The notes below the pieces were generated by a model, which was not told the DNA's origin, did no database searches, and worked only from the letters and a program-made list of their open reading frames with translations. The translations under genes were made by a program, and so were the position numbers. Below are positions 2,446-61,888 of a DNA stretch of 64,000 bases, piece after piece (position 1 is the first letter of the stretch; each line of letters starts with the position of its first letter). Source of the stretch: Ruditapes philippinarum (lineage: Eukaryota); assembly GCF_026571515.1 (NCBI RefSeq), contig NW_026857783.1, positions 114,878-178,877 on the forward strand, written 5' to 3'.

Positions 2446-2696
2446 GTAAGTTTTCATCTGGCTAGATAGACAATGTAAGGCATTAAACATATTTGTAAAA
2501 GACAGAAGGAAAGTACGAATTATACCATAAATAATTCATTGTACAACTTTATTTGCATCTCTTTTGAATTTTGAAGGTTTTTTCTGGACATCCATAGTGT
2601 GCTTGTATATATTTTGTATCGTAATTGTTTCATTCGCGTTTGTTTTGCAACATCTATTGACGTAACGCAGATTAAAATGTGCACTCTTATTTTCAG

Positions 2697-3095
2697 AATG
2701 AAAGGATAGAGAAAGGACAGAACAGGTTCTTGCGTCACAGAAACTTCATTTTTCAACGGATTGACATCGCTTTAGTTCTTGCCAATTGCTATCAGATAAG
2801 AACCATTATCTCAGAACCAAACAAACATGAATATTACAAGATACCATTGGGGTTTGCGATAGCTTCAATATGTTTACAGATTTTGTTTACGATACTGATG
2901 GTCATATCTTGGCAAGCAGATAAAAAGTCAATAGACTCTCAAGGCAATATAAAAAAGGCTGAAAGTTTGATAGGCAAGGTCTCGCAATTCATTGCCATGC
3001 TTTTAGTTCTATTTATTGTCATTTCAAACATTGTTGTTGTAGAATTTGGGGCTATGACCAGCAATAGTAAAGGAAATGGAACTGACTTAAGTTGA
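2697..3095 (+). CDS. Ninjurin-like paralogue A, last exon (NERIEKGQNRFLRHRNFIFQRIDIALVLANCYQ...two TM helices...), TGA at 3093-3095
   Basis: Acceptor ttattttcag at 2687-2696. The translation carries the ninjurin signature: an amphipathic helix DIALVLAN, as in human NINJ1 ...MLDIALLMANASQLKAV..., then two hydrophobic helices with ...IVISNIVVVEFG, as in NINJ1 IIVVVNIFITAFGV. The intron position and phase match paralogue C. Confidence 0.8.
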   Translation, partial: NERIEKGQNRFLRHRNFIFQRIDIALVLANCYQIRTIISEPNKHEYYKIPLGFAIASICLQILFTILMVISWQADKKSIDSQGNIKKAESLIGKVSQFIAMLLVLFIVISNIVVVEFGAMTSNSKGNGTDLS

Positions 3096-9328: not shown

Positions 9329-9757
9329 CTATTCTGGTGAGCTTATTTCATTGTGATAATGACTTTCTATACCGAATCCTGCTATGAAAACATTTGAAAC
9401 AATAACAAACAAAACAAGAACGCTTCCAGTCCTATCCAGCCATGTTGCAATTCTTTCCTTTCGTTTCATTTGTGGATCGTCTTCACTGGGTTTCGTCTCT
9501 ATTTGTTTCGTCTCTATTTGTTTCTCTAATGTTTTTTCAACTGACCATATGATGAGCATACAGATTGTGAAGATTACTTGCAGAGTAATGGACATACAAA
9601 TGAATGTTAATATCAGGTAATAGTGCGGATTGTTGTCAGAGGCAATGAGGGCTTTTAGTTGAGACACGTTCGCCATCATCAGAGCCACGTCCATCAGTTG
9701 ATGTATGAAGTTGCGTTTACCGATATATGCATTAGGTGTTGTCACAGGTTCAATGCT
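9329..9757 (-). CDS. Ninjurin-like paralogue B, last exon (SIEPVTTPNAYIGKRNFIHQLMDVALMMANVSQLKALI...two TM helices...)
   Basis: Acceptor cttcag on the minus strand (plus 9758-9763). The core NFIHQLMDVALMMANVSQLK and the second TM helix VLVLFVIVSNVFIAGFG are shared with paralogue C and resemble NINJ1. Stop codon at 9329-9331. Confidence 0.8.
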   Translation of the reverse strand, partial: SIEPVTTPNAYIGKRNFIHQLMDVALMMANVSQLKALIASDNNPHYYLILTFICMSITLQVIFTICMLIIWSVEKTLEKQIETKQIETKPSEDDPQMKRKERIATWLDRTGSVLVLFVIVSNVFIAGFGIESHYHNEISSPE

Positions 9758-16765: not shown

Positions 16766-17233
16766 TCAGAGTTGAATTTTCGTTCCATTCATCAAAAGCA
16801 AGAATCGTTCGACAACCTTCGATTCTTTCGGAGATTCTGGATCTCCGTGTTCTTCTACCCCAAATCCAGTAATGAAAACATTAGAAACAATTATCAGAAG
16901 CACTAAAATATTTCCAAATTTGTCTAGTCTTTCGGAAAGAATTCGTCGGCTTTCATCCACTGGGTGATTCTCCTTTGGGGACTCCGCTAGGTGCTCTTGC
17001 AGCTTCTTTTCTATGGACCAAATAATCAACATGCATACTGTGAATACCACTTGCAGCACTATAGAACAACAAATGAACGCCAGGAGAATGAAGTAATATT
17101 TGTCCCCCTTGTCCATAGAGAGAAGAGATTTTAATTGAGACACATTGGCCATCAGGAGAGCCACGTCCATCAGTTGATGAATAAAGTTTCGTTTACCAAC
17201 ATAAATGTTGGGGGCACCGGTACTTTCCAAGTC
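16766..17233 (-). CDS. Ninjurin-like paralogue C, last exon (DLESTGAPNIYVGKRNFIHQLMDVALLMANVSQLKSLL...ILVLLIIVSNVFITGFGVEE...)
   Basis: Acceptor caatttcag on the minus strand (plus 17234-17242). This paralogue gives the best NINJ1 match: KRNFIHQLMDVALLMANVSQLKSL versus human KKSAAESMLDIALLMANASQLKAV, and LIIVSNVFITGFGV versus IIVVVNIFITAFGV. Stop codon at 16766-16768. Confidence 0.85.
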   Translation of the reverse strand, partial: DLESTGAPNIYVGKRNFIHQLMDVALLMANVSQLKSLLSMDKGDKYYFILLAFICCSIVLQVVFTVCMLIIWSIEKKLQEHLAESPKENHPVDESRRILSERLDKFGNILVLLIIVSNVFITGFGVEEHGDPESPKESKVVERFLLLMNGTKIQL

Positions 17234-17399
17234 CTGAAATTGAAAACATTGTTTTAAAATCGGAGTAAAGTATATAGAAAGAGAGAGTGTGCTCACAAAT
17301 TAATTACATCAAACGTAGAAAATCACTTTTCTGGTAAAAAAAAGAAAGATATTATTTCAAACCAATAAAAATCATCCAGTAAAACACTTTAACACCGTT

Positions 17400-23689: not shown

Positions 23690-24364
23690 TAGAAATAACA
23701 ATGTATGTTCTTAATTCTACAAATGTTCTTTGCAGTCATTCACTACTCAACATAATGTAATAACCATTTATGTTCTTAATTCTAGAGATGTTCTTTGAAG
23801 TCATTCACTACTCAACATAATGTAATAACCATGAATGTTCTTAATTCTAGAGATGTTCTTAACAAACATTCTCTACTCAACATAATATAATAACCATTTA
23901 TGTTCTTAATTCTACAAATGTTCTTTGAAGTCATTCACTACTCAACATAATGTAATAACCATGAATGTTCTTAATTCTAGAGATGTTCTTTACAAACATT
24001 CTTTACTCAACATAATGTAATAACCATGAATGTTCTTAATTCTAGAGATGTTCTTAACAAACATTCTCTACTCAACATAATATAATAACCATTTATGTTC
24101 TTAATTCTACAAATGTTCTTTGAAGTCATTCACTACTCAACATAATGTAATAACCATGAATGTTCTTAATTCTAGAGATGTTCTTTACAAACATTCTTTA
24201 CTCAACATAATGTAATAACCATGAATGTTCTTAATTCTAGAGATGTTCTTAACAAACATTCTCTACTCAACATAATGTAATAACCATTTATGTTCTTAAT
24301 TCTAGAGATGTTCTTTACAGACATTCACTACTCAACATAATGTAATAACCATTTATGTTCTTAA
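23690..24364. repeat. Satellite with a 65-bp unit (about 10 copies); proximal block of an array split by an insertion
   Basis: The unit ttctacaaatgttctttgaagtcattcactactcaacataatgtaataaccatgaatgttcttaa is repeated head to tail. The block starts 70 bp upstream of the ZNF exon acceptor and lies in the ZNF intron. Confidence 0.9.
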
Positions 24365-26357
24365 GGTGACAACGGAGTCAATTATCACTGAAAATACCTA
24401 AAATGAGATTTTTTGCTTAGTATATTTATCAACCTTTTCTGAACACATTCGTGATTTAATTTTGGAAGCAGTTAGTCCAAAAAATGTGTTTTTAAACGTT
24501 TTAAAACGGTACCTGTACTATTTTTATCTGCTATCGCGTAACCTGTCAATTATCGATAACGCTCCGCCCCCTGTTGAGGCATCAATGAGGGAAATCGGTA
24601 GTTCCATATATGCGTGAATTACCGGTCCATACTGGTCCATACTACTCGTAATTCATGTATCGTACAAATACCGTACATCTTTTATGAATATCGTCTACCT
24701 TTTATTTAGCCTTTTTTATAAAATAAGAAATTGTCGGCCAATGTACGTAACATAATGTATGAAACATAAAATTAAATAATTAAGCATAGCGACAAATCGC
24801 ACGACCACGGGGTTGATTAAAAATATAGTTGCTAAAATATCCATAATGTGTGAAAATAATTTGTCTGTCCCGTTAATCTGATAGATATTACATTGAGTTT
24901 ATGGACTTTTGTACGGATTCAAGGGCTTGCTTTACATTCAACCTCGTTTTCTAACAATGTCAAGTAAAACAACAACAAAAGCAGACAACATTTTTTATGT
25001 GAACGCCTATATGACTTGTGGTAAGGTCTCCCTGACAAATTTCTAAACCATTTTAGGTTGTCTAAGGATGATTATTTCTCTATGAATCAATAAAAAAAGA
25101 TAATAAAATAAATTATCAGTGAATGCTTTGAATAAATTGTTCGCTAGTAAATCGAACACAGTACTAATAAACCTGGGAGAAAGTTTGGAATTTATTGTAT
25201 ATCCCAGTAGAAACTGGATCTCTATGCCGTGCATAGATGATTTCCATGATAATAGAAGTCAAGAAGGTCAGATCATAATGATCGAGTGATACCTTTTATT
25301 TCTATTAAAATATGTGAAGCATTTATATCAATTTGGAGGAAAAAATATATAAAATCCCGTTCTTATTTGTACATCTACCATGGACTTTAAAATACTGTCA
25401 GAAGCTCAGTTTTTTTGTTATTTTAATTTATATTTTAACGGAATTTCATACACGAGTACACAGATAGAGTGACACTGGTATAATATAATAATAATGCTGA
25501 TGATAATAATAATAAACTTTAAATGTGAAACAATTAAATACCCCGCTAGCGGTGCACAAATACGTCCCATTTCCCCCCACCGAGTGCCTCAAATTTTACC
25601 GAAAGTCACGTGACATGTGCAACCGATACCAGACTAACGGTAAATCACGTTAAGATGTGAAGAAATTTCTGTTATAAACTGATATTAATCAGCAACTTTT
25701 TAATTGGTCAGATGTCACTGGGTCATAAAATGTTGTTAGTGTATGTTACCGCAACTTGTGACCCTCTCTGGTGCGATATTTGTGTATTATGTAATTATTT
25801 AGCGTGAAACGTAGGGGTCCGAGAGAGAACAGCCAATTTATGACACTTCGTTTGATGCGGATCGGACTAACTTTGAATCGGCATAACTTTTTTAATAATC
25901 AAGCAATTAACATGCGGTTTAAAGCACATGAAGGGGAATTCATTTACGGAGGGAACCGTATCAGGGATTTTTGTTTGCTCAATCAGCGACTTAATTATCT
26001 TTAATTACGTAATATGTATGGTGAAAAAAGTCGCATAAAATGTTTGACGTTACGTAATATTTTTTTGAGAAAAGATAGACAAAATTTGAGACACGGTTCC
26101 CCAGATATTATAAGTATGTTTATTTTCCAAAAGTTTGATGACACAAAAATAAAAAATGACTTTGATATGACGATTTAAAATTTTAGGATTTTTATTAAAA
26201 ATCAATCATTTACAAAGACATTTTTTTCAAATATGTTATTTTTTATGATGATCAACGACATTTAATGCACAAAGATTAAATAAATAACAATTATTACTAG
26301 AATAAGTTGGTTTAAATGACATTTATGTGATTACCACGGAAAGTGTCTGTTGTCACC
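24365..26357. mobile_element. A 1993-bp TIR element inserted into the satellite; it is flanked by a TTAA target-site duplication and has the 9-bp TIR GGTGACAAC...GTTGTCACC
   Basis: Left junction ...atgttc TTAA|ggtgacaacggag. Right junction ctgttgtcacc|TTAA ttctacaaatg. The satellite unit continues in register across the insertion, with the TTAA of the unit gttcTTAAttcta duplicated. No intact transposase ORF is present, so the element is non-autonomous. Confidence 0.75.
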
Positions 26358-27325
26358 TTAATTCTACAAATGTTCTTTGAAGTCATTCAATACTCAACAT
26401 AATGTAATAACCATTTATGTTCTTAATTCTACAAATGTTCTTTGAAGTCATTCACTACTCAACATAATGTAATAACCATGAATGTTCTTAATTCTAGAGA
26501 TGTTCTTAACAAACATTCTCTACTCAACATAATATAATAACCATTTATGTTCTTAATTCTACAAATGTTCTTTGAAGTCATTCACTACTCAACATAATGT
26601 AATAACCATGAATGTTCTTAATTCTAGAGATGTTCTTTACAAACATTCTTTACTCAACATAATGTAATAACCATGAATGTTCTTAATTCTAGAGATGTTC
26701 TTAACAAACATTCTCTACTCAACATAATATAATAACCATTTATGTTCTTAATTCTACAAATGTTCTTTGAAGTCATTCACTACTCAACATAATGTAATAA
26801 CCATGAATGTTCTTAATTCTAGAGATGTTCTTTACAAACATTCTTTACTCAACATAATGTAATAACCATGAATGTTCTTAATTCTAGAGATGTTCTTAAC
26901 AAACATTCTCTACTCAACATAATGTAATAACCATTTATGTTCTTAATTCTAGAGATGTTCTTTACAGACATTCACTACTCAACATAATGTAATAACCATT
27001 TATGTTCTTAATTCTACAAATGTTCTTTGAAGTCATTCACTACTCAACATAATGTAATAACCATGAATGTTCTTAATTCTAGAGATGTTCTTTACAAACA
27101 TTCTTTACTCAACATAATGTAATAACCATGAATGTTCTTAATTCTAGAGATGTTCTTAACAAACATTCTCTACTCAACATAATATAATAACCATTTATGT
27201 TCTTAATTCTACAAATGTTCTTTGCAGTCATTCACTACTCAACATAATGTAATAACCATGAATGTTCTTTATTCTACAGATGTTCTTTACAGATATTCAC
27301 TACTCAACATATTGTATAACAATGT
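26358..27325. repeat. Satellite with a 65-bp unit (about 15 copies); distal block
   Basis: Same unit as 23690-24364. Confidence 0.9.
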
Positions 27326-37544: not shown

Positions 37545-37915
37545 AAAGTTCCTTATAAATGCATATACCTCTATAGGTGACGTATTCCATTATCCCTGGA
37601 ATAATTTTAAAATAGTAAATGCACACTCTCTTTGCGACGTTATTCATACACTCAAACTCGTGAACATTTCAAAATAGGTAATGCACACTCTCTCGGTGAC
37701 GTCATCTATGCACTCTAGACTCATTGACATTATCAAAATAGTTAATGCAAACTCTCGAGCTCTCGGTGACGTCATCTATGCACTCTAGACTCATGGAAAA
37801 TATCAAAATAGTTCATGTATTCTCCAGATGACGTTATTCATACAGTCATGAATAATTTTAAATACTAAATGCACACTCTTTAGGTTACGTAATTCATACA
37901 CTGATAATAATTTCA
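37545..37915. repeat. Tandem repeat with a unit of about 61 bp and about 6 copies; two units carry the palindrome TGACGTCA
   Basis: Units aaatagtaaatgcacactctct..g.gacgt.at.catacactc...tcaaaat follow one another. TGACGTCA occurs at 37697-37704 and 37767-37774. The array lies immediately 3' of the ASB-like gene. Confidence 0.85.
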
Positions 37916-37996: not shown

Positions 37997-39649
37997 TCAT
38001 TCCACATTGTTGATGTACTTTTTCAAAGCTATCGGTATTGACAATTCAACCACAGCCGTGGATTTCCATTCACATGCTTGCAAAATACTTAAGCGACAAA
38101 GAACTTTTAAGTTCCAAACACTAGAAGATCGTTTTTGCATCTCGTCTTTGCATATTTTAAAAAGCTTCCTTTGTATATCATTGGTCGGTTTCCCGCCAAA
38201 TTCGATCTTACACGCGCTACTGACAGACGTCAATGTCATATTACCAAGGAGTGTATTCACTATTTCATTAACATACTCCAGTTGTGCAGCTTCGTCTGAT
38301 TTTGTTATCTTTTCAAACTTTTCAGAGTGCATTAAAATTTCGTCACAAAATGTGTTTAACGGAAACTTTCCGGACAAATTTTCATTGGGATCAGAACCGT
38401 TCTGGATCAACAGTCTAAAAGTAGTGATACTGCGTTCATCCAATCCAAGTACTATAGAAACTTTCAGAAATGCATGTAAAGCGTTCCCTATGAAACCATT
38501 TGGTCCGTCACCAACGCTGCCCTTCACTGAAAGATCGGAACCGTGGCGTAGTAACGTCTCCGTGCATTTGGTGATAAAACGTCTAATATTTGTGACGTCA
38601 TCTTCAAAATGTCTTACTAATGTTAAAACATTGTCATACAAGCAGTGGAGCGCGGACGAGTACGCTAATCGTCCAAATGCTGTTTGGATGTGCAATGCTT
38701 CGTGTTCCTTCTCAAATTTGACCTCATCAAAGTTCGGATCCACTCCTGCGTTCAAGAGAACAACCATGCACGCTGCTATATATGGATACGACTTTCCGAA
38801 ATCCGACGCGGGTGTATGGCTTAGTAAGCTATACAATGGATAAGTACGAAATGGAATATCAGACACTGGATTTTGTTTATACTTCAACAAGACGGAGGTA
38901 ACTGTCAAAAGAGATTCGTACCATTCCTTTTTAAATGATAGACTGTACGAGTATAGTACATGGTAAAGGTTCATACCACTGAAAAGTGAAGTAAGTGAAG
39001 GATTGCATCTTAAAAGAACATCTAGGCACTCTGCATTTGCTAATTTCAAGGCAGCGCCTACTGCAGACTTAAGGTCGTCCGACGTTGTCCTTTCTTTAAG
39101 CAATAAGCGTAGAGCAGACGGCGAGTTACTGGCACATGCTGCGGATAAGTGATTTTCTGAACCAAACTCCAGTTTGGTTTTAACTGACGACACATCCAAA
39201 ATAGATCTTACACACGAAGTGTGCCCACTTAGAGCGGCTACATCTAGCGGTGTCACCATACTTGTCCCGCCAGGGGAATGTAGTGGCGTCTCCGTCGGGG
39301 GATTCACCCACTTGAATTTACTTTTCTTTGTAGAATAATCACGTGGTCTCTCTTGTAAAATCATACTTACAATTGTTCTACTTCCAAAGTTTGCTGCCAG
39401 ATGTATATAAGAATGAAATTTTGGTTCGTGTGGCGGTTTAAAATGACCGAGGGCAAATATGATTCCGACGGCCTCAATGTTTTCTGACATAATGGCATGA
39501 TGTAAAATATCGTAGCCATCTTTATCTGTCCAGGAAAGCAACTGATCTCTGTCGCACTTTTCGAAACATCCTCTTAGTCTAGAGACATCTTCTGTAGTAT
39601 TTATTTTCAAATAAAGCGTAGATTTCAAGTCGTTTATTTTCGTCGACAT
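37997..39649 (-). CDS. Ankyrin-repeat and SOCS-box (ASB-like) protein in a single uninterrupted ORF of about 550 aa; an alternative upstream ATG lies at 39679
   Basis: The uninterrupted ORF is 560 codons. It has several ANK-like repeats (DGYDILHHAIMSENIEAVGIIFALG; TPLDVAALSGHTSCVRSIL; LKSAVGAALKLANAECLDVLLRCNP; YPYIAACMVVLLNAGVDPN; GNALHAFLKVSIVLG..LLIQNGSDPN). The C-terminus matches the SOCS-box BC and Cul boxes (SVWNLKVLCRLSI...LSIPIALKKYI). No introns are needed. Confidence 0.8.
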   Translation of the reverse strand: MSTKINDLKSTLYLKINTTEDVSRLRGCFEKCDRDQLLSWTDKDGYDILHHAIMSENIEAVGIIFALGHFKPPHEPKFHSYIHLAANFGSRTIVSMILQERPRDYSTKKSKFKWVNPPTETPLHSPGGTSMVTPLDVAALSGHTSCVRSILDVSSVKTKLEFGSENHLSAACASNSPSALRLLLKERTTSDDLKSAVGAALKLANAECLDVLLRCNPSLTSLFSGMNLYHVLYSYSLSFKKEWYESLLTVTSVLLKYKQNPVSDIPFRTYPLYSLLSHTPASDFGKSYPYIAACMVVLLNAGVDPNFDEVKFEKEHEALHIQTAFGRLAYSSALHCLYDNVLTLVRHFEDDVTNIRRFITKCTETLLRHGSDLSVKGSVGDGPNGFIGNALHAFLKVSIVLGLDERSITTFRLLIQNGSDPNENLSGKFPLNTFCDEILMHSEKFEKITKSDEAAQLEYVNEIVNTLLGNMTLTSVSSACKIEFGGKPTNDIQRKLFKICKDEMQKRSSSVWNLKVLCRLSILQACEWKSTAVVELSIPIALKKYINNVE

Positions 39650-48660: not shown

Positions 48661-51660
48661 TTCTTCTTCTTCTTCCAGTATAAGAGCCGGGATCCAAAAG
48701 GAACGTAATGAGGCTCTGCGAAACTATGTACATGGTGAGATGGAACACTCTTCCTCTCAGCGATAAAAGTTGTAAAAACTGATAAAAATTTATTTACAGA
48801 GACGTTGTGAAGTGAATTTAGATGGAGGCCGGCAGGCGCGCGCGGAAAGCATCCAACGTTTCCGCGGCGGTGACTGTTGATGCCAGGCCATTCCAGTCAA
48901 CAATTGTCCTGGGGAAGAAGGTATTTGTATACATCCTGCCAGTGGTGCGTTCTTGGTAGAAACGTATACGTGTTCTACTGTCACTGGTGTTCTTCTTGGA
49001 TTGGTTACTCAGTGGTAGGTACTTGTCCTTGGGGATGTCTACTAGGTCATGTTGAATGCGATAGAGCATGCCTAACCTTGCTTCCTTCCTTCTCTGTTGG
49101 AGGGTGTTCCAATCCAGGCTCCTCAGCATTCCTGTCATACATCCGGGTGTTCTGGATTTATAGTCATTTTTGACAAAACTGGCTGCACTTTTCTGGATCT
49201 GCTCAAGTGAATCTATGTGTGTCTGAAGATGAGGATCCCAAACCGTTGCTGCATATTCAAGACCTGGGCGTACAAAAGTTGCTGCTTTCAGTTGTGGTGT
49301 ACAATCCTTCATGTTTCTCCTCACAAATCCCAGTGTTCTGTTTCCTTTGGCAGCTACATTCTGTATGTGCTTGTCCCATGAGAGGTTGTTGGAGACACTT
49401 ACACCAAGGTATTTGCTGTGGTCCACTGATTGCAGGACTTGGCCATGAAGTATATATTGTTCCAGTGCTTCAAGATCCTGCTGCAGCCTTGCCTTGCCTT
49501 GTCATTTGTACTCTTGATGACCCTGTACATGAGGCTGTCGTCCGCAAAGAGTCGGATGTCAGATGATGTGCAGTCAGGCATGTTATTTATGAAGGCCAGG
49601 AATAAAAGTGGACCTAGTACGGTTCCCTGGGGAACGCCAGATATAACATCATCTTGGTCAGACTTGGTGCCTTCAAGGACTACCTGTTGCTTGCGGTTAC
49701 TCAGGAAGGTTTTGATCCACTGGCTTAAGGGACCTCTCACGCCATAGAAATCTAGCTTGTAGAGGAACTTTGTCGAACGCCTTCTCGAAGTCGAGTAGAA
49801 TGGCGTCTACTTTGTTACCCGCTGAGAGATACTTCGCGATGGTGTCAACTGTTGTTAAAATTTGAGTTTCGCATGAGCGACGTTTCCTGAAACCATGCTG
49901 GTTGTCTCTCAGTATATGGTTGGTGTCAAAGTGTGACATTATATTACTGTGGACAATGTGTTCCAGGATCTTGCAGGTGATCGATGTAAGTGAGACGGGC
50001 CTATAGTTGGCCGGGATGTGTGTATCTCCCTTTTTGTAGATGGGTACTACATTTGCATCTCTCCAGTCCTGAGGTACTTCAGAAGAGTCTAGGGAAAACT
50101 GGAAAAGGCGGGTAAGTATTGGTGCCAGTTCAGCAGCAGCTAAATGGAGGAACCGGGTCGGAATCTCATCAGGGCCTGCAGCTTTAAATTTATGGCAGTT
50201 AAGATTTTGGAGTAATTTCCGTACTCCTGGTTCCCTAACTGTAATAGATGGCATGCTGGGATGGCTACTTGGTCCCTTGTCAGGTAAGTTCTCTGTGGGT
50301 TCTCGGGTGAAGACAGAGCTGAACTGCTGGTTCAGTATACTGGCCTTGCTCTTGCTGTCACTCCGAATGAAACCAGCAATATTCTTCAGGGGCGCTACAC
50401 CAACTATTTCCTGACCCTTGCTCTTGATGTAGGAATAGAACTTCTTTTTGTTGGCTGGACTACTGTCACTGATGATGTCTTGCATATACTGCCGGCTTGC
50501 TCGTCTTGTGTGCCACTGGACTTCTTTTTGCAGTCGCTTGTAACGATCTCTGTCTCGTTTGGAGTTTGATTTCCTAGCTTTCTTAAAGGCTTTTTGTTTC
50601 CGTCGAATGCTTCTTTTGATGGTGGAATTCATCCATGGATTTGTATATTTAGAACAAGTGAGTTTAGATGGTACTCTCTTGGTTATAATTTCTGTGATGT
50701 TTGTTTTAAAATCATGCCACATCGATTCAATGTCTGTGTATGGGGTGTTCTGGAATTCGGTTGCTAGAGTACGGGTGTCTTCTTTGATGGCATTAAGGTC
50801 CGCCTTCTTCCATAGTAGTATTTTCCGTCTTGCTGGGCGTGGATGGTATGTTTGGATCGAAGTGTCGAGGAGCACAATGTCATGATCGCTGTTCCCTATC
50901 GAGGGCATAGGTTTACATCTCATCTTGAAGCTGGAGTGGGTGGTCAGGATCAGATCTAGTATCTTGTCTTTCCTGGTTGGAAAATCCACTTATTGTTCTA
51001 GGTTGGAGTCAGCTATCATATCTAGGAAGTGTTTGCTGGTGCTCTGTGGGTACTGGGATCCAGATATATCAAGAGTTTTCCAGTCTATGTCTGGTAAATT
51101 GAAGTCGCCCCCAATAATAAATATGCTGTTCTTCGATTTGGACTTCAAACTGCTAATCTCTTCTGTTGATTTTGAGAGGTATTCAGAATCAGTCCTGTTT
51201 GGTGGTCTGTAGTAGGTTGCTTTTGTGATGTTTTTGGATCCTGACTTGATGGTGCCACTAACCAGTTCTGTGTTACTGCTCTTGTAGATGTCGTGTAGCA
51301 GGAGATGTTGTTTTGCCGCTATAAGGACTCCACCATGGGGGTTTTCAGGTCTGTCTCTCCGCTGTATGTCATAGCCAAGGTCACTTGGCAGTATTTCGCT
51401 AGAGGCAACTTGACTGTCCAGCCAGGTTTCTGTGCCTAAAATAACATCTGGGTCGCAGTCTAGTATGATTGACTCAAGGAGTTTCCCTTTCTTACGTAGG
51501 CTCTGGAAGTTTATATTAAGAAGGCGTAGCATGTTTTTCTTCGCGGTGGATTTGGCTGAGGTTTGCTGAGGCTTAGGTGAGGAGGTAATTATGTTTGCAC
51601 CAGAGAGGTTGAAGGTAGAGTTGCTGTGTTCAGTACTCACGCTAGATCTGGACTGCATTG
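48661..51660 (-). mobile_element. Non-LTR retrotransposon (APE endonuclease plus reverse transcriptase; CR1/L2/RTE-like), decayed, about 3 kb
   Basis: Collinear minus-strand ORFs. The 222-aa ORF at 50990-51658 has APE-type endonuclease motifs (ILGTETWLD, GGDFN). The 430-aa ORF at 49697-50989 and the 113-aa ORF at 49399-49740 hold the RT, with FRKRRSCETQI...LDFEKAFDKV and VPQGTVLGPLLF...FADDSLMY. The 202-aa ORF at 48818-49426 is the C-terminal domain. Adjacent ORFs are separated by one stop and two frameshifts. A (GAA)5 microsatellite tail lies at the element's 3' end (plus 48661-48675). Confidence 0.85.
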
Positions 51661-54312: not shown

Positions 54313-55526
54313 GGCTGAGGGCCTCAAGTTAACAGTCACTACATGTAGTTATAAGTACAAAGAATTTTACTTGTAAATATTTTTTGTTGATTTGTTATTC
54401 TTAATAGAAGTTGGAACACGACACTCATTGTGGCAAAATCTGTTATATTGTGTTTTATACAAGGAAAATATGTGTGAAATAGTATATTTAAATGAGATGA
54501 TTTATTTCCCTCATGGAAAAAATTACCATCCTTGATTTTATGTCTTTTGGTGAAATTGTACCTTCTGATTAATTTCATTTTGATCTCTGTTTAGTTTTCT
54601 GTTAAAGCTGCATGCATCCAGATAAGTCAAAATATTTCATGAAAATCAAACTTCAGAAAAAAAAAAGTACTAAGGATTTAAGAAAAGTACTCAAGAATAA
54701 TTAACATGCTATTTATTGTGTGATTAATGACTGACTTTGCAGTATTTATCACCATATTTTTACTGTTTGGCTAATGCAGTTAGGGATATTTTTGCATATT
54801 TTGACTGCTTTTTGGTATTTAGTGACAGAGATTAAAAGTGCTGTTTGTTATGTATAAATGACTTTCTTTGTTCCCTTCACAATATTTTACTTTTAAACAC
54901 ATTTTCAAAATATCCATGAAAATTAGCATGAATTTGGATGCATTATTCTTGAAATGATTTACAGTTTCTTTGAAGAAAAATAATTAATTCTTACCCAGGA
55001 GGAACAATTTAATGTGTTAAGTATTTGCCACCAGTAAAGAGCTAGGGCAGCGTACTTATTGGTCAGTTATTCTCAAGGCCATTATGTCCTAATCCCCCCA
55101 CCTCCAATGGTATACCAGGACCAGGGGAGATAAGTGAAATTGTTACATTTAGTCTGTACCAGCATTGACAGATCTATGTGGTGGTTTCGATTTGGTGCCA
55201 AAATAGATGGGGATGGGGGGAGCTATGTCCAACTCTTGAGTGTGGGTGCAATTATTGACAATTAAGGGGTATATTACCTGACTATCCCTGAAGGCAGGGC
55301 CTTTACCAGGGGTTTGATATTACAAAAGTGCCACTGTTCCCCAGTGATGGAACCTTTAATGTTATACAAATATATTGACTTGTGCATGTATTACAATAAT
55401 TACGGAGGAGGAAAGATATTGACACATCTTTTTCATAAAATCTTGTAAGCATTTTGCAGTCTTATAATACATACATGTATGTATATAATACAGGTATTTC
55501 AGGTGTTCAGCCATTAGATACTGATC

Positions 55527-55655
55527 ATGGCTCTGTTTGAAGGATGCCAGATTGTTTTAGATCTGACCACAGCAGTCAGGTTTAAGGAGAAGACTCAGAT
55601 GAGGAAAGACATTACATCCAATGGAGGAATTGTGTCTTTCATTGTCACTAAGAAG
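55527..55655 (+). CDS. PARP4: PARP4 (vault PARP)-like protein, exon 1: the N-terminal half of the BRCT domain (MALFEGCQIVLDLTTAVRFKEKTQMRKDITSNGGIVSFIVTKK)
   Basis: ATG at 55527. Donor AAG|gtaaaa in phase 0. It resembles the human PARP4 N-terminus MVMGIFANCIFCLKVKYLPQQQKKKLQTDIKENGGKFSFSLNPQ. Confidence 0.65.
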
Positions 55656-55949
55656 GTAAAAAATTACATCTATATACTAGGTAAACCATATTATATTCTG
55701 GTACAAAACCAAGTGTCTGACTAAATGACATAAGTAGTTACATGTACCTTTGTGATACATTTTAGCAGGAAAGGCTATACTACATGTACCATAATTATAC
55801 CCCAAATGAAAATGGGTCATTTTCATAAACAAATTGAAAAAAAAATAATAAGGTAACATAGAATGTTTTGTTTAACTGAAAAGAAAAAAAAAATGTTTTA
55901 TTTTGTGTGATTTTGTAAGAAATATTACAATTTACTATTTTCAGGGGCA

Positions 55950-58235
55950 CTAAATAGTAAATACCCAAATATACCCAATTACACCCAAATATACCCAAAT
56001 ATAGCAATATTCATTTTTGTTTGTATAAAATACAGATTATAATTTGAAAATGAATCAATATTAATAAAAATAATATTACTTAGTCAGCTATAACTTTCAT
56101 TCATTCCGTTAAAATGGGCAGTTTAAATGTTGTAAGAAAATAAACTTGTGACATTTGCTTATCTAGGTTCATTACTGAATATACTTGCAAATTAAAATAA
56201 AGATATGATAATATTTGTTGTCTACATTTAATTTTTAGCTCACCTGAGCATGCTCAGGGTGAGCTTTTAGGATCGATGATTGTCCGTCGTCCGTCCGTCC
56301 GTCGTCCGTTCACATTTTGTTGTTAACACTCTAGCTGTCGCATTTTTGCCTCAATCATCATCAAACTTGGTCAGGATGCTTATCTAGTTGATAGCTCAGA
56401 TGAGTTCGAACATGGGTCATCTCGGATGAAAAACTAGGTCACAAGAGCTAAAAATAGAAAAACCTTGTTAACACTCTAGAGGTCTGGTCACATTTTTGCC
56501 TCAATCATCATCAAACTTGGTCAGGATGTTTGTCTAGGTGATAGCTCGGATGAGTTCGAACATGGGTCATCTCGGATGAAAAAGTAGGTCACCGGAACTA
56601 CAAATAGAAAAACCTTGTTAACACTCTAGCGGTCACATTTTTGTCTCAATCATCATCAAACTTGGTCAGGATGCTTGTCTAGGTTACAGATAGCTCGGAT
56701 GAGTTCGAACATGGGTCATCTCAGATGAAAAACTAGGTCACCGGAGCTAAAAATAGAAAAACCTTGTTAACACTCCAGCGGTCACATTTTTGCCTCAATC
56801 ATCATCAAACTTGGTCAGGATGCTTGTCTAGGTTACAGATAGCTCGGATGAGTTCGAACATGGGTCATCTCGGATGAAAAAGTAGGTCACTGGAGCTAAA
56901 AATAGAAAAACCTTGTTAACACTCTAGCAGTCACATTTTTGCATCAATCATCATCAAACTTGGTCAAGATGCTTGTCTAGGTGATAGCTTGGATGAAGTT
57001 GAACATGAGTAATCCTGGATGAAAACCTAGGTCACCGGAGCTAAAAATATAAAAACCTTGTTAACACTCCAGCAGTCACATTTTTGCCTCAATCATCATC
57101 AAACTTGGTCAGGATGCTTATCTAGTTGATAGCTCGGATGAGTTCGAACATGGGTCATCTCGGATGAAAAACTAGGTCACAAGAGCTAAAAATAGAAAAA
57201 CCTTGTTAACACTCTAGAGTAGGTCACAATTTTGCCTCAATCATCATCAAACTTGGTAAGGATGTTTGTCTAGGTGATAGCTTGGATGAGTTGGAACATG
57301 GGTCATCTCGGATGAAAAACTAGGTCACAGGAGCTAAAAATAGAAAACTCTTGTTAACACTCTAGTGGCTCTTGTTTTGATCCAAATATCCTGTAAATTG
57401 GTCTGAAAGTTTGTTTTGATGATTTCTAAGTCAAGTTCGAACATGGGTCATCTTGGATGAAAAACTAGGTCACACCGCCCAAATATGGAAAAACCTTGTT
57501 AACATTCTAGTGGTCACATTTTCGACTCAATTATCATCAAACTTGGTCAGGATGCTTGTCTAGGTAATTGCTCGGATGAGTTCGAAATCGCATGTGAAAC
57601 TAGGTCACTGGAGCTAAAAATAGAAAAATCTTGTTAACACTCTAGTTGCTACTGTTTTGATCCAAATATCCTGGAAATTGGTCTGAAAGTTTGTTTTGAT
57701 GATTTCTAGGTCAAGTTTGAATATGGGTCACCTGGGTAAAAAACTAGGTCACACTGCTCAAATATGGTTAATCCTTGTTAACACTGTAGTGGTCACATTT
57801 TTCACTCATCTGTCATGAGACTTGGTCAGAATGCTTGTCTAGGTAATTGTTTGGATGAGTTTGATGGGTCAGGTGAGCGATCTAGGGCCATCATGGCCCT
57901 CTTGTTTAGAGTATTATTAAAATTTTGTTGAAATTTCATACAAGTGTCCATCACATTATTTTTTTTTTGAAAATTTAATATAGCTTTAATGAAGTGTACT
58001 GTACTGTATTTGGGTATATTTTGGTTCAAAACACAATGATAGGAAAATGTATATTTGGGTATGTTTGTCTTTGTTTGATCAATCTCAGTGAAAGTGTATA
58101 TTGTAATTCATAATTAAAACAGCACTTTTTTTTGTATAAAACATTCATTTTTGGTATATTTGAGCAATATTTGGGTATATTTGGGCAATATTGGCAATAT
58201 TTAGGTGTATTTGGGTATATTTGGGTATTTCATGC
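55950..58235. mobile_element. Foldback-type element of about 2.3 kb: TIRs of about 80 bp flank a 150-bp tandem array of about 11 copies; it lies in PARP4-like intron 1
   Basis: Left TIR aaatacccaaatatacccaattacacccaaatatacccaaatatagcaatattcatttttg. Right TIR caaaaatgaatgtt..gagcaatatttgggtatatttgggcaatatt..ggtgtatttgggtatatttgggtatttc. The internal array at 56300-57890 repeats the unit ttgttaacactctagcggtcacatttttgcctcaatcatcatcaaacttggtcaggatgcttgtctagg..gatagctcggatgagttcgaacatgggtcatctcggatgaaaaactaggtcaccggagctaaaaatagaaaaacc. A perfect 12-bp-stem hairpin gctcacctgagcatgctcagggtgagc at 56238-56265 precedes the array. Confidence 0.8.
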
Positions 58236-59151
58236 TGCCAACTATTTCTATGTGTCAAAAATTATTACAGCCACTACTCTATATATAGAGGATATTTGTT
58301 TGTTTCAGTGTAAGATCGAAAAATATTTCACCGAGTGAACACCAGATGCAATATTTTCCACGAGTGGCGTAGCCACGAGTGAAAATATAATAGCTGGGGT
58401 TCACTAGTGAAATATTATTTGATCTTACATGTAAAACAAACAAATTTTCTGTTTATTTCATGATTTTTTAACGATTTTTACACCATTTTACTGATTTTTG
58501 CCGCGTAACGTCATGCTCTTATCTTCATGACGTCATGAAATAATGACGTCACAATGTTGAAGCAAAATATAATTCCATGATTATTTTTAGATTTTAGATG
58601 TTTTTCAGCACAACGTTCGTAAATATTTACAAACTACAGTTATCACGTACATTTTTTATTATGATTGACTACAATTCCGCTGAAAAAAACATTCATTAAT
58701 GATAAATATTTTATTTTTACGCCAAATATAGTTCGGCTACTGTGAAATTATATTTGGTAATCATTACTGTGAAATTATCAGAATATAATTAACCGTTATA
58801 ATTCAGTAATCTACTGCAAAACATGTAATAAAATGTCATAACTCAGAAGTTTTAGGCATTGTAAAACAGTATGACTGTCACATACAAGATACAGATCCAT
58901 AGCTCCATACTAAGTTTAAGGTCACATTTAGAGGTCAAAAGTATCTAGTAAATGGTATCTATAACTTGTGTCAACTCATTATTTTTGTTATTTCTTTATA
59001 TATTGTGAGATTCTGTAGGAAAAAAAGACAGCATGTAAATTGTTTTATCAAAACCTGTTTAAGCTTGACATCATTAAATTTTAGAGCCTGTAAATTTACT
59101 TAATAGTTAATGCCTTGACAAATTGCTCTTTTTTTTATTTATTTTATGTAG

Positions 59152-59350
59152 AGTACACATGTTGTATGCAATGATGCAGAAAAAGCAGAGTTCTCATATA
59201 AATGCAAAACGGCTGCCAAGTATGGTATTCCGGTTGTTTCGGTTCCCTGGATAAATAAGAGCATTGAAGCCGGTCACCTGCTGAACACAGATGACTTCCT
59301 GGTCATGGGAATATCAAAATCTGAGGCTCTTAAGGAAGGAAAAATATCAG
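59152..59350 (+). CDS. PARP4: PARP4-like protein, exon 2: C-terminal half of the BRCT domain (STHVVCNDAEKAEFSYKCKTAAKYGIPVVSVPWINKSIEAGHLLNTDDFLVMGISKSEALKEGKIS)
   Basis: Acceptor ttttatgtag. Donor TCAG|gtaact in phase 1. It carries the BRCT hallmarks THVV...W(I/L)..(S/C)I..G.LL and resembles PARP4 CTHIILDNADV...IANPDFIWKSIREKRLL. Confidence 0.75.
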
Positions 59351-59524
59351 GTAACTTTTATCTTAAGCAAGTTATACTATTAAACTTTTGACAGAATAAA
59401 AATTTTGTGCATCAGTTGTTTTTTTTTGACATGCTATCATGCTATTATATTCTTGATTGTTGAGAATTTTCTTCCTACTGAAAAAATGTCATACTTTAAA
59501 ACTTTGGAGTTTATGCTTGAGCTC

Positions 59525-61586
59525 AGACATGATGTTGTACTGGAGAACTGACATGATGTTGTACTGGAGAACTGACATGATGTTGTACTGGAGAACTGAC
59601 ATGATGTTATACTGGAGATCTGACATGATATTATACTGGAGGTAAGACATGATGTTATACTGGAGGTCTGACATGATGTTATACTGGAGGTCTGACATGA
59701 TGTTATACTGGAGGTCTGACATGATGTTATACTGGAGGTCTGATATGATGTTATACTGGAGATCTGAGATGATGTTATACTGGAGTTCTGACATGATGTT
59801 ATACTGGAGGTCTGACGTGACATTATACTGGAGTTCTGACATGATGTTAGACTGGAGGTAAGACATGATGTTATACTGGAGGTCTGAGATGATGTTATAC
59901 TGGAGATCTGACATCTTTTATACTGGAGTTCTGACATGATGTTATACTGGAGGTCTGACATGATATTATATTGGGATTCTGATATGATGTTATACTGGAG
60001 TTCTGATATGATGTTATACTGGAAGTCTGACATGATGTTATACTGGAGGTCTGACATGATGTTATACTGGAGGTCTGACATGATGTTATACTGGAGTTCT
60101 GACATGATGTTATACTGAAGGTCTGACATGATGTTATACGGAGATCTGACATGATGTTATACGGGAGATCTGACATGATGTTATACGGGAGGTCTGACAT
60201 GATGTTATACGAGAGGTCTGACATGATGTTACATTAGAGGTCTGACATGATGTTATACTGGAGGTCTGACATGATGTTATACTGGAGGTCTGACATGATG
60301 TTATACTGGAGGTCTGACATGATGTTATACTGGAGTTCTGACATGATGTTATACGGGAGGTCTGACATGATGTTATACGGGAGGTCTGACATGATGTTAT
60401 ACTGGAGGTCTGACATGATGTTATACGAGAGGTCTGACATGATGTTACATTAGAGGTCTGACATGATGTTACATTAGAGGTCTGACATGATGTTATACTG
60501 GAGATCTGACATGATGTTATACTGGAAGTCTGACATGATGTTATACTGGAGGTCTGACATGATGTTATACTGGAGGTCTGACATGATGTTATACTGGAGT
60601 TCTGACATGATGTTATACTGAAGGTCTGACATGATGTTATACGGGAGATCTGACATGATGTTATACGGGAGATCTGACATGATGTTATACGGGAGGTCTG
60701 ACATGATGTTATACGAGAGGTCTGACATGATGTTACATTAGAGGTCTGACAATGATGTTATACGGGAGGTCTGACATGATGTTATACGGAGGTCTGACAT
60801 GATGTTATACGAGAGGTCTGACATGATGTTACATTAGAGGTCTGACATGATGTTACATTAGAGGTCTGACATGATGTTATACTGGAGGTCTGACATGATG
60901 TTATACTGAAGGTCTGACATGATGTTACACTGGAGTTCTGACATGATGTGATACTGGAGGTCTGACATGATGTTATACGAGAGGTCTGACATGATGTTTA
61001 TACGGGAGGTCTGACATGATGTTACATTAGAGGTCTGACATGATGTTATACTGGAGAACTGACATGATGTTAGATAGGAGATCTAACATAATGTCATACT
61101 GGAGAACTGACATGATGTTAGACAGGAGATCTGACATGATGTTATACTGAAGGTCAGATATGATGTTAGACAGGAGATCTGACATAATGTTTTACTGGAG
61201 GTCTGACATAATGTTATACTGGAGGTCTGACATAATGTTGTTCTGGAGGTCAGACATGATGTTGTTCTGGAGATCTGACATGATGTTGTACTGGAGAACT
61301 GACATGATGTTGTACTGGAGAACTGACATGATGTTGTACTGGAGAACTGACATGATGTTATACTGGAGGTCTGACATAATTAGACATAATGTTGTTCTGG
61401 AGATCTGACATGATGTTGTACTAGAGAACTGACATGATGTTGCACTGGAGAACTGACATGATGTTATACTTGAGGTCTGACATAATGTTATACTGGAGGT
61501 CTGACATAATTAGACATAATGTTGTTCTGGAGATCTGACATGATGTTGTACTGGAGAACTGACATGATGTTGTACTGGAGATCTGA
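59525..61586. repeat. 24-bp minisatellite of about 86 copies spanning about 2.06 kb, in PARP4-like intron 2
   Basis: The unit gacatgatgtt(a/g)tactggag(g/a/t)(t/a)ct recurs with subfamilies TATACTGGAGGTCT, TGTACTGGAGAACT and TATACGGGAGATCT. All supplied ORFs within it (MMLYWRSD.. and MSDLQYNI..) are repeat translations. Confidence 0.95.
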
Positions 61587-61888
61587 CAAGAGAAAACTGA
61601 CACAAATAAGTACAATGGGCTTGTAGCGACAAGTTATTGGCAACAAGTTATTTAAAAAAAAATGCTATTTGTAGCTCAGTTTTAACATCTTGATATTGAA
61701 AAGCTGTAAACTTTAAATTGACGGTTTCAGTTTCAAAGTAGGACAAAACCATTTAGTAAGTTAAGGGCCTAGAGATAAATGTCTTTTGGAATCACAGTAA
61801 TCTGTTTATATAATCAGTAGCTCTGGTTTCATTAAAAAAATGAATATTTATCTTATTATAACAACCATTGTTTAAAACTTTCTTTCAG

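What the first reader, a model, noticed from the sequence alone, without database searches (positions are those of the whole stretch)
55950..58235. Foldback element with a hairpin-led 150-bp satellite core
TIRs of about 80 bp are built from (TATACCCAAA)-like degenerate repeats. They enclose a perfect 12-bp-stem hairpin (gctcacctgagcatgctcagggtgagc) followed by about 11 head-to-tail 148-150-bp units. Elements that carry and disperse satellite arrays have been described in bivalves (Helitron/Helentron-associated and pearl-like MITEs). This structure would be a vehicle for satellite seeding.
Basis: partly seen in the sequence, partly recalled or inferred. Interest (0 to 1): 0.5.

Follow-up and report, generated by a model that had tools for sequence, protein, structure and literature searches.

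The report
Satellite-carrying Helentron (HINE) in clam intron
The hairpin and the 150-bp tandem array are the two ends and cargo of an ordinary non-autonomous rolling-circle transposon (a HINE, the pearl/DTC84 type known from bivalves), and the "TIRs" of 10-bp repeats belong to the DNA it landed in.

Summary

**The mobile unit.** It is a 1.67-kb element at about 56232-57907 (+). Its parts, in order, are:
- a T-run plus A;
- the 5' subTIR GCTCACCTGAGC;
- a complementary IR, which forms the "hairpin";
- a (GTCC/GTCG)n microsatellite;
- 10 full monomers and one truncated monomer of 135-150 bp;
- the 3' subTIR (11/12 inverted match);
- the palindrome AGGGCCATCATGGCCCT;
- the terminal CTTGTT(T).

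This is the published architecture of HINEs (Cg_HINE, DINE-1, pearl/DTC84).

**Comparative evidence.**
- 86 external loci share the 3' end, and similarity stops sharply after CTTGTT(T).
- At least 10 of them share the 5' end.
- Several carry homologous ~145-bp arrays in the same orientation.
- None carries the 10-bp TATACCCAAA blocks (0 of 74 with enough flank).

**The outer blocks.** They form a real inverted pair (34 bp, 94%). They lie 226 and 241 bp outside the element, in 23%-GC DNA that has no arm complementarity and no abutting TSD. Their nature is unresolved: an old MITE or foldback remnant, or a local inverted duplication.

**Host and verdict.** The host is a venerid clam close to Ruditapes philippinarum. 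This is a new member of a known kind, of low interest.

The parts
56232..57907 (+). Complete non-autonomous Helentron (HINE), about 1.67 kb. The ends are uncertain by a few T's.
   Evidence: BLAST of 55000-59200 against 274 kb of related loci matches only ~56225-57915. The 3' boundary comes from 86 loci and the 5' boundary from 10 loci.
56232..56237 (+). 5' terminal T-run plus A (TTTTTA). It is conserved immediately upstream of the subTIR in relatives. The element/target boundary lies within the T-run.
   Evidence: T-runs at HINE termini are described in PMC4067079.
56238..56249 (+). 5' subTIR GCTCACCTGAGC
   Evidence: Identical 12-mer in all related 5' ends. Its inverted partner is unique in the window.
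56252..56264 (+). IR GCTCAGGGTGAGC, complementary to the 5' subTIR. Together they form the 'hairpin': a 12-bp stem with one bulged G.
   Evidence: dG -10.2, z -4.9. The bulge is conserved in L015, L018, L023, L068 and L072.
56282..56309 (+). (GTCC/GTCG)n tetranucleotide microsatellite; it reads (ACGG)n on the minus strand.
   Evidence: Sequence. The same module is present in related 5' ends. The GTCY/GTCC/GTCK microsatellite of Cg_HINE is described and the ACGG microsatellite of DTC84/pearl.
56319..57867 (+). Central tandem repeats: monomers m1-m10 (135-150 bp) plus a truncated m11 (94 bp). Variants are A (m1-m7), B (m8, m10) and A' (m9, m11).
   Evidence: Homologous monomers (68-83% identity) occur in arrays inside related elements.
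57867..57878 (+). 3' subTIR GGTCAGGTGAGC, an 11/12 inverted match to the 5' subTIR.
57884..57900 (+). 3' palindrome AGGGCCATCATGGCCCT (7-bp stem, 3-nt loop).
57901..57907 (+). 3' terminal CTTGTT(T).
   Evidence: Base frequencies over 86 loci are C1.00, T.95, T.95, G.95, T.98, T.85, T.71, then background.
55959..56005 (.). Outer left block of 10-bp repeats (ATACCCAAAT x4.3). Not part of the HINE.
   Evidence: Absent from all related loci.
58149..58230 (.). Outer right block, inverted (TTTGGGTATA x7.9). The best inverted match to the left block is 58197-58230 (34 bp, 94%). Lone extra copies lie at 58004-58025 and 58049-58067.
56006..56231 (.). Left AT-rich spacer (GC ~0.23). It is host or older-element DNA, unrelated to the right spacer.
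57908..58148 (.). Right AT-rich spacer (GC ~0.25).

Best explanation
**What it is.** Window ~56232-57907 (+) is one copy of a non-autonomous Helentron (HINE). This is the element type first described in bivalves as pearl/DTC84 'MITEs' and in Drosophila as DINE-1. It carries a satDNA-like array as its central module.

**How it moves (inferred from the family, not tested here).** A Rep/helicase(/endonuclease) protein from an autonomous Helentron elsewhere in the genome acts in trans. It recognises the subterminal inverted repeats and terminal hairpins, and mobilises the element by rolling-circle-type transposition into T-rich DNA without a target-site duplication. The 5' subTIR plus IR hairpin and the 3' subTIR plus palindrome are the cis signals. 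The array and the microsatellite are cargo.

**How the array changes (inferred).** Copy number changes by unequal exchange or slippage. Here m1 and m6 are 97% identical, m3 and m4 97%, and m2 and m7 91%, which points to recent internal duplications at the 5' side. The alternating B/A' variants at the 3' side look older.

**Where it landed.** This copy inserted near the middle of a ~600-bp AT-rich stretch, probably intronic, bounded by an inverted pair of 10-bp-repeat blocks. That stretch is a separate and older structure, either a decayed MITE/foldback-type element or a local inverted duplication. It is not the transposon's TIRs.
For: **Architecture.** The element matches the published HINE layout module by module:
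- a 12-nt subTIR pair (11/12);
- an IR 2 nt after the 5' subTIR;
- a GTCC-type microsatellite;
- a short spacer, then tandem repeats;
- a 3' subTIR followed by a palindrome 7 nt from the end;
- T-rich termini;
- no ORF longer than 67 aa.

The definitions are in PMC7492417, PMC4067079 and PMC3879986.

**Multi-copy family with sharp ends.**
- 82 metagenome contigs and 4 'genome' contigs share the 3' end, and similarity stops after CTTGTT(T).
- 10 distinct 5' ends share T-run+A, the subTIR, the IR and the microsatellite, with unrelated upstream flanks.
- Complete copies are 471-2125 bp long, with or without central repeats.

**Same cargo family.** Homologous ~145-bp monomers occur in arrays in the same orientation behind the same 5' end (L018, L019, L023, L072) or before the same 3' end (L069, L084).

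**Boundaries in the window.**
- Matches to relatives cover only ~56225-57915.
- GC steps from 0.23 to 0.40 and back to 0.25.

**Context.**
- The host is a bivalve: an ankyrin/SOCS ORF is 96% identical to a Ruditapes philippinarum protein.
- Insertion of Cg_HINEs into other repeats or TEs is documented.
Against: - No autonomous Helentron (Rep/helicase) with these termini was found in the window or in the fetched loci. The mobilising partner is therefore inferred.
- No empty site could be recovered. The only related exon-bearing contigs are from more distant species with unalignable introns, and the R. philippinarum locus could not be fetched.
- The search pattern itself required the 3' palindrome, so its conservation is partly by construction. 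The sharp boundary, the CTTGTT tail, the 5' ends and the monomers are not by construction.
- The origin of the metagenome loci (presumably mollusc DNA) was not verified.
- The host genome could not be searched, so a clam-specific composite that includes the 10-bp blocks is not strictly excluded.
Confidence: 0.88

Rival explanations
1. One reading: a single composite foldback element at 55959-58230. Its TIRs are the 10-bp-repeat blocks, and it carries the hairpin and the array as internal parts and moves as one unit.
For: - The inverted blocks are real and specific. The best pair is 34 bp at 94%, with a shared variant sub-repeat in register.
- They occur nowhere else in the window.
- The inner element sits close to the centre, 274 and 323 bp from the outer ends.
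Against: - 0 of 74 relatives with enough flank, and none of the complete copies, have such blocks.
- Similarity to relatives ends exactly at the inner termini.
- The spacers are not complementary, so no foldback arms exist: score 19 against 24 +/- 4 in shuffles.
- The blocks do not self-fold.
- No TSD abuts the blocks.
- There is a compositional break at the inner boundaries.
Confidence: 0.04
2. Nested insertion into a genuine transposon. The outer ~600-bp unit (55959-56231 plus 57908-58230) would be a decayed MITE or foldback-type DNA transposon with sub-repeated TIRs, and the HINE later inserted into it. This is a refinement of the best explanation that concerns only the outer part.
For: - A 34-bp TIR at 94%.
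- The size (~597 bp) and the AT-richness are typical of MITEs.
- Sub-repeated TIRs with extra internal copies (58004-25, 58049-67) recall Foldback-type ends.
- Cg_HINEs are often found inside other DNA transposons.
Against: - No abutting TSD.
- No second copy in the window or in 274 kb of related DNA.
- The block lengths are unequal (47 vs 82 bp).
Confidence: 0.4
3. The outer blocks are a non-mobile local feature: an inverted duplication of a 10-bp minisatellite in intronic AT-rich DNA. They happen to flank the HINE insertion.
For: - Single occurrence, no TSD, unequal blocks and unrelated spacers.
- The window is rich in other mini- and microsatellites.
Against: The in-register 94% match, including a variant sub-repeat, argues for a single duplication event of a defined sequence. 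This is equally compatible with TIRs.
Confidence: 0.45
4. The array is a fragment of a classical satellite (for example BIV160/Cg170), and the flanking hairpins are fortuitous.
For: The monomer length (~145-150 bp) is in the range of bivalve satDNAs.
Against: - The termini recur with the same monomer family in independent loci.
- The BIV160 primers have no match with up to 5 mismatches.
- The array is short (1.5 kb) and lies in gene-rich DNA.
Confidence: 0.02

Closest known systems
Cg_HINE elements of Crassostrea gigas (Vojvoda Zeljko et al. 2020, PMC7492417; listed in Repbase as Helitron-N*_CGi)
   Same: - The order of modules is identical: 5' subTIR (11-12 bp), a 1-12 bp gap, a complementary IR (7-12 bp), a GTCY/GTCC microsatellite, a variable spacer, a satDNA-like array, the 3' subTIR and a palindrome.
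- The subTIR pair with one mismatch is the predominant state.
- Insertion is T-rich with no TSD.
- The elements are dispersed in gene-rich DNA and often sit inside other TEs.
   Different: - The host is a venerid clam, not an oyster.
- The monomer (~148 bp) and flank sequences were not found in the held Cg_HINE supplements. The table of Cg_HINE subTIR sequences was illegible, so sequence identity of the termini could not be compared.
pearl (CvA/CvE/CvG, Crassostrea virginica) and DTC84 (Donax trunculus) 'tandem-repeat-containing MITEs' (PMC3879986)
   Same: Read on the minus strand, the window element is L flank, core repeats, (ACGG)n and R flank. An ~11-bp inverted motif is subterminal at one end and terminal at the other, and there is AA (= TT) at the termini. 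Ordered monomer variants occur within the array.
   Different: - The array here has 10.6 monomers, against up to 5 in DTC84.
- Those elements were first classed as MITEs with an AA TSD and later re-assigned to Helentrons.
DINE-1 / HINE of Drosophila, mite and mosquito (Thomas et al. 2014, PMC4067079)
   Same: - The defining layout is shared: subTIRs, an IR 3-22 bp from the 5' subTIR, a microsatellite, central repeats and a 3' stem-loop.
- There is a TT target with T-runs at the termini.
- By their rule (at least 11 identical subTIR nucleotides), the window copy and the complete relatives fall in one family.
   Different: A different phylum and no sequence similarity expected. The autonomous partner was shown there and is not shown here.
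Foldback-type elements carrying satellite repeats (e.g. Drosophila FB; Tetris, cited in PMC7492417)
   Same: The outer inverted blocks are built from short tandem sub-repeats, as in FB-type TIRs, and they enclose a tandem array.
   Different: There are no complementary arms, no TSD and no other copies. The array's own carrier has independent, conserved Helentron-type ends.

Membership tests
HINE (non-autonomous Helentron; DINE-1-like) | A pair of 11-15 nt subterminal inverted repeats, a few nt from the 5' end and upstream of the 3' stem-loop. | tested here: met
   GCTCACCTGAGC at 56238-49 against GGTCAGGTGAGC at 57867-78, an 11/12 match. The partner is unique in the window.
HINE (non-autonomous Helentron; DINE-1-like) | A short IR complementary to the 5' subTIR within ~1-22 nt, forming a 5' hairpin. 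| tested here: met
   The IR lies at 56252-64, 2 nt after the subTIR. dG is -10.2 and z is -4.9. It is conserved in 10 relatives with variable loops.
HINE (non-autonomous Helentron; DINE-1-like) | A palindrome or stem-loop near the 3' terminus, after the 3' subTIR. | tested here: met
   AGGGCCATCATGGCCCT at 57884-57900, 7 nt from the end.
HINE (non-autonomous Helentron; DINE-1-like) | A tetranucleotide (GTCY-type) microsatellite in the left module, with optional central tandem repeats. | tested here: met
   The microsatellite is at 56282-56309. The array is at 56319-57867.
HINE (non-autonomous Helentron; DINE-1-like) | A multi-copy family with sharply defined common ends and unrelated flanks. 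| tested here: met
   86 loci for the 3' end and 10 for the 5' end. The loci come from other samples or species, not from the host genome.
HINE (non-autonomous Helentron; DINE-1-like) | Insertion into TT or T-rich sites without a TSD, confirmed by empty sites. | tested here: inconclusive
   The termini are T-runs in AT-rich DNA, and no direct repeat flanks the element. No empty site was obtainable.
HINE (non-autonomous Helentron; DINE-1-like) | No coding capacity. | tested here: met
   No ORF of 55 aa or more lies inside 56232-57825. Only a 67-aa ORF spans the 3' end.
HINE (non-autonomous Helentron; DINE-1-like) | An autonomous Helentron partner (Rep/helicase +/- APE endonuclease) sharing the termini. 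| not testable with these tools
   None was found in the window or upstream of the 3' end in the fetched loci. The host genome is not searchable here.
pearl / DTC84 tandem-repeat MITEs | L flank, core repeats, (ACGG)n microsatellite and R flank, with an inverted ~11-bp motif subterminal at one end and terminal at the other, and AA at the termini. | tested here: met
   The same layout is seen on the minus strand.
   Only a 34-50 bp terminal match exists. The 226- and 241-bp spacers are not complementary: score 19 against 24 +/- 4.
   The flanks are ...AAATAGT| and |CATGCTG.... Only non-abutting 7-mers are shared.
   0 of 74 related loci have the blocks, and there are none elsewhere in the window. 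The host genome itself was not testable.
BIV160/Cg170 satellite family | Monomer similarity to the BIV160 consensus or primers. | tested here: not met
   The published bivF and bivR primers have no match with up to 5 mismatches. No Cg170-like strings were found.

The most novel reading that the evidence does not exclude
The outer unit would be an undescribed foldback- or MITE-type DNA transposon of venerid clams, with 34-bp TIRs built of 10-bp sub-repeats. It would have acquired a HINE near its centre, so the satellite array could now be moved by two unrelated transposition systems (rolling-circle and cut-and-paste) as a composite.
Probability: 0.05. Interest if true: 0.45.

Novelty: new member of a known kind. 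Interest (0 to 1): 0.17.

Why it matters
- It adds a clean, fully delimited example of the established picture: in bivalves, short satDNA-like arrays in gene-rich DNA are cargo of non-autonomous Helentrons.
- It shows that one terminus family (subTIR GCTCACCTGAGC; 3' AGGGCCATCATGGCCCTCTTGTT) with a related ~145-bp monomer is widespread in marine samples.
- The practical value is for annotation. The true boundaries, the microsatellite and the 3' palindrome give a simple signature for finding such elements in clam genomes.
- The same signature flags eukaryotic host contamination in 'bacterial' assemblies and metagenomes.
- It does not open a new question.

Tried and rejected
- **Other copies in the window:** a search for any part of the structure found none.
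- **Literal motif and monomer strings in the literature:** only unrelated primer hits, or nothing.
- **Cg_HINE supplements:** the subTIR table was illegible, and no matching strings were found.
- **BMC Genomics 2016 supplements:** no sequences were held.
- **Viral contig scan:** 0 hits.
- **Exact look-up of the 550/560-aa ORF:** not in the collection.
- **Empty-site or orthologous-site test:**
  - The exon at 55514-55655 gave contigs from more distant species only (75% nt in the exon, introns unalignable).
  - The R. philippinarum gene locus was not on record.
- **Autonomous Helentron ORFs in the fetched loci:** none.
- **Rfam and tRNA scans of the region:** nothing. This excludes a SINE or tRNA-derived element.
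- **TSD search around the outer blocks:** only non-abutting 7-mers.
- **A first microsatellite regex:** too strict and uninformative. The microsatellites were read directly from the sequences instead.
Full report
**1. What is in the sequence**

- TRF finds a tandem array at 56320-57861 with period 145, 10.6 copies and 81% matches.
- Cutting at the CTTGTTAACA anchor gives ten full monomers of 135-150 bp and a truncated 94-bp eleventh.
- The monomers fall into three variants: A (m1-m7, 85-97% identical), B (m8 and m10, 89% to each other and 65-72% to A) and A' (m9, m11).
- m1 and m6 (97%), m3 and m4 (97%) and m2 and m7 (91%) indicate recent internal duplications.
- The hairpin GCTCACCTGAGC-AT-GCTCAGGGTGAGC lies at 56238-56264. 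As DNA it folds at -10.2 kcal/mol against -3.1 +/- 1.5 for shuffles. It is a 12-bp stem with one bulged G, not a perfect stem.
- Ten-bp ATACCCAAAT-type repeats lie at 55959-56005, and inverted at 58149-58230.
- The inverted match is far above chance: score 63 against 25.8 +/- 3.6. The best pair is 34 bp at 94%, with a variant sub-repeat in register.

- A (GTCC/GTCG)n microsatellite at 56282-56309.
- An inverted copy of the hairpin's first arm at 57867-57878, matching 11 of 12 and unique in the window.
- Five nucleotides later, a perfect 17-nt palindrome AGGGCCATCATGGCCCT at 57884-57900.

**2. The true element**

The order of modules is:
- 5' subTIR;
- short gap;
- complementary IR;
- GTCY-type microsatellite;
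- short spacer;
- satDNA-like tandem repeats;
- 3' subTIR;
- palindrome.

This is exactly the published architecture of Helentron-associated interspersed elements. It is described for Cg_HINE in Crassostrea gigas (PMC7492417) and for DINE-1/HINE (PMC4067079). Read on the opposite strand, it is the 'L flank + core repeats + (ACGG)n + R flank' layout of pearl and DTC84 (PMC3879986), which were later re-assigned to Helentrons.

**3. Comparative test**

No part of the structure recurs in the window, so I scanned public collections with the 3' signature GGTGAGC-N5-AGGGCCATNATGGCCCT.
- It hit 82 metagenome contigs, mostly marine.
- It hit 4 contigs filed under bacterial genomes: a 0.77x-coverage 'Paenibacillus' contig and three contigs of a Sedimenticola MAG, most likely host carry-over.
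- It hit no viral contigs.

Aligned on the signature, all 86 loci continue with CTTGTT(T) and then diverge completely. Base frequencies after the palindrome are C 1.00, T .95, T .95, G .95, T .98, T .85 and T .71, then background. The 3' terminus in the window is therefore 57906 or 57907.

Ten distinct loci also carry the 5' end: a T-run plus A, the identical 12-nt subTIR, an IR with a variable loop (the bulged G is conserved), a conserved T(A/T)TT.. stretch and a GTCY microsatellite. Upstream sequence is unrelated in each. The 5' terminus therefore lies in the T-run at 56232-56236.

Complete relatives are 471-2125 bp long. Some have no central repeats. Others carry 138-, 145- or 444-bp arrays.

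Monomers homologous to the window's (68-83% identity) occur in tandem in the same orientation. They sit behind the same 5' end in L018, L019, L023 and L072. They sit in front of the same 3' end in L069 and L084.

A BLAST of window 55000-59200 against all 274 kb of these loci matches only ~56225-57915. GC content steps from about 0.23 to about 0.40 and back at the same points.

**4. The 10-bp 'TIRs'**

- None of the 86 loci has a block of the 10-bp repeat. That includes 0 of 74 loci with at least 350 bp of downstream flank, and none of the complete copies.
- In the window the blocks are separated from the element by 226 and 241 bp of AT-rich DNA. These spacers show neither inverted nor direct similarity: score 19 against 24 +/- 4 in shuffles.
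- The blocks do not self-fold.
- No direct repeat abuts the blocks. The flanks share two different non-abutting 7-mers, which is what chance gives in AT-rich DNA.

The blocks are therefore not the ends of the array's carrier. With the HINE removed in silico, what remains is a ~597-bp, 75-78% AT unit with a 34-bp, 94% TIR and extra sub-repeat copies on one side. This could be a decayed MITE or foldback-type element that the HINE hit. Cg_HINEs are frequently found inside other DNA transposons. It could equally be a local inverted duplication. The host genome is not searchable with the tools available, so I leave this open at roughly 40:45.

**5. Host and context**

- A 550-aa intronless ankyrin/SOCS ORF (37997-39649, minus strand) is 96% identical to a Ruditapes philippinarum protein and 84% to Mercenaria. 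The window is from a venerid clam close to R. philippinarum.
- The neighbourhood is gene-rich. It holds Ninjurin-like ORFs, a C2H2 zinc-finger gene, a Ras-family exon and a non-LTR retrotransposon.
- The element lies about 580 bp downstream of a putative exon (about 55514-55655, GT donor). That exon is conserved at protein level in other clam-like contigs (91% aa, 75% nt). The element is therefore probably intronic.
- No Helitron/Helentron Rep or helicase is encoded in the window or in the fetched loci.
- Rfam and tRNA scans are negative.

**6. Mechanism**

Shown here:
- the cis architecture;
- multi-copy status with sharp ends;
- association of the same termini with the same monomer family;
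- T-rich termini.

Inferred from the family (Thomas et al. 2014; Vojvoda Zeljko et al. 2020):
- mobilisation in trans by a Helentron Rep/helicase;
- rolling-circle-type transposition into TT without a TSD;
- the 3' stem-loop and the subTIRs acting as recognition or termination signals;
- changes in array copy number by unequal exchange or slippage.

It is, however, the known HINE mechanism and not a foldback one.

**7. Comparison and novelty**

By Thomas et al.'s rule (at least 11 identical subTIR nucleotides), the window copy and the complete relatives form one family. [quoted passage not shown]

I found no paper in the held library that describes these elements in Ruditapes. The monomer does not match the BIV160 primers or Cg170-like strings. 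This is therefore best filed as a new member of a well-known kind. A specialist would not be surprised, and interest is low.

**8. Limits**

- The conservation of the palindrome itself is partly imposed by the search pattern.
- The taxonomic origin of the metagenome loci was not verified.
- No empty site was obtained.
- No autonomous partner was identified.
- The Cg_HINE subTIR table was illegible, so a sequence-level comparison with named Repbase families was not possible.

Noticed in passing
window 58283-58456 (stem 58294-58447): A near-perfect 154-nt hairpin or palindrome lies 64 bp to the right of the outer right block. DNA dG is -48.7 kcal/mol against -14.1 +/- 3.1 for shuffles, z = -11.3. 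It is a genuine foldback/MITE-like structure. No other copy was found in the window or in the fetched loci.
   Followed up: partly
window 58500-58560: A cluster of TGACGTCA (CRE-like) palindromes, including a perfect 16-nt palindrome TTCATGACGTCATGAA at 58524-58539. A 70-bp repeat at 37609-37817 also contains GGTGACGTCATC.
   Followed up: no
window 59511-61588: A large 24-bp minisatellite (TTATACTGGAGGTCTGACATGATG, ~86 copies, 87% matches) with higher-order periods of 82, 106 and 130 bp at its 3' part. It produces spurious long repetitive ORFs on both strands.
   Followed up: no
window 23694-24364 and 26357-27324: Two arrays of the same 65-bp unit (195-bp higher-order period, 94-96% matches) lie in the same orientation, separated by ~2 kb of unique sequence. 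This looks like one array split by an insertion, or the two repeat-bearing ends of another element. The intervening 24365-26356 has no other copy in the window.
   Followed up: partly
window 48818-51658 (minus strand): A non-LTR retrotransposon. The ORFs hit Exo_endo_phos (50990-51658) and RVT_1 (49697-50989), and the frame is broken between pieces.
   Followed up: partly
window ~55514-55655 (+): A putative exon ending at an AAG|GTAAAA splice donor. It is 91% identical at protein level but only 75% at DNA level to short ORFs on Logan contigs (L087-L089), and 67% to one on a 370-kb ENA contig (L090). It was not found in annotated R. philippinarum proteins, so it may be an unannotated conserved exon. 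The HINE would lie in the following intron.
   Followed up: partly
window 2679-3095 (+), 9329-9745 (-), 16766-17296 (-): Three similar ORFs, and the third has a Pfam Ninjurin hit (E = 1e-20). This is an apparent tandem cluster of Ninjurin-like genes.
   Followed up: partly
L083 (NZ_WACP01000036.1, 'Paenibacillus tengchongensis', 1525 bp, cov 0.77); L084-L086 (JBEVXV01, MAG 'Sedimenticola sp. isolate 2 TCF1'): Contigs filed under bacterial genomes carry the bivalve-type HINE 3' end. L084 also carries ~145-bp monomer arrays, and L085 a complete 471-bp element. This is most likely eukaryotic host DNA contaminating these assemblies.
   Followed up: partly
window 56319-57867: The array has an ordered variant structure. 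There are seven A-type monomers with internal duplications at the 5' side, then alternating B-A'-B-A' at the 3' side, ending in a monomer truncated at the 3' subTIR. This resembles the fixed positional order of core-repeat variants reported for DTC84.
   Followed up: partly
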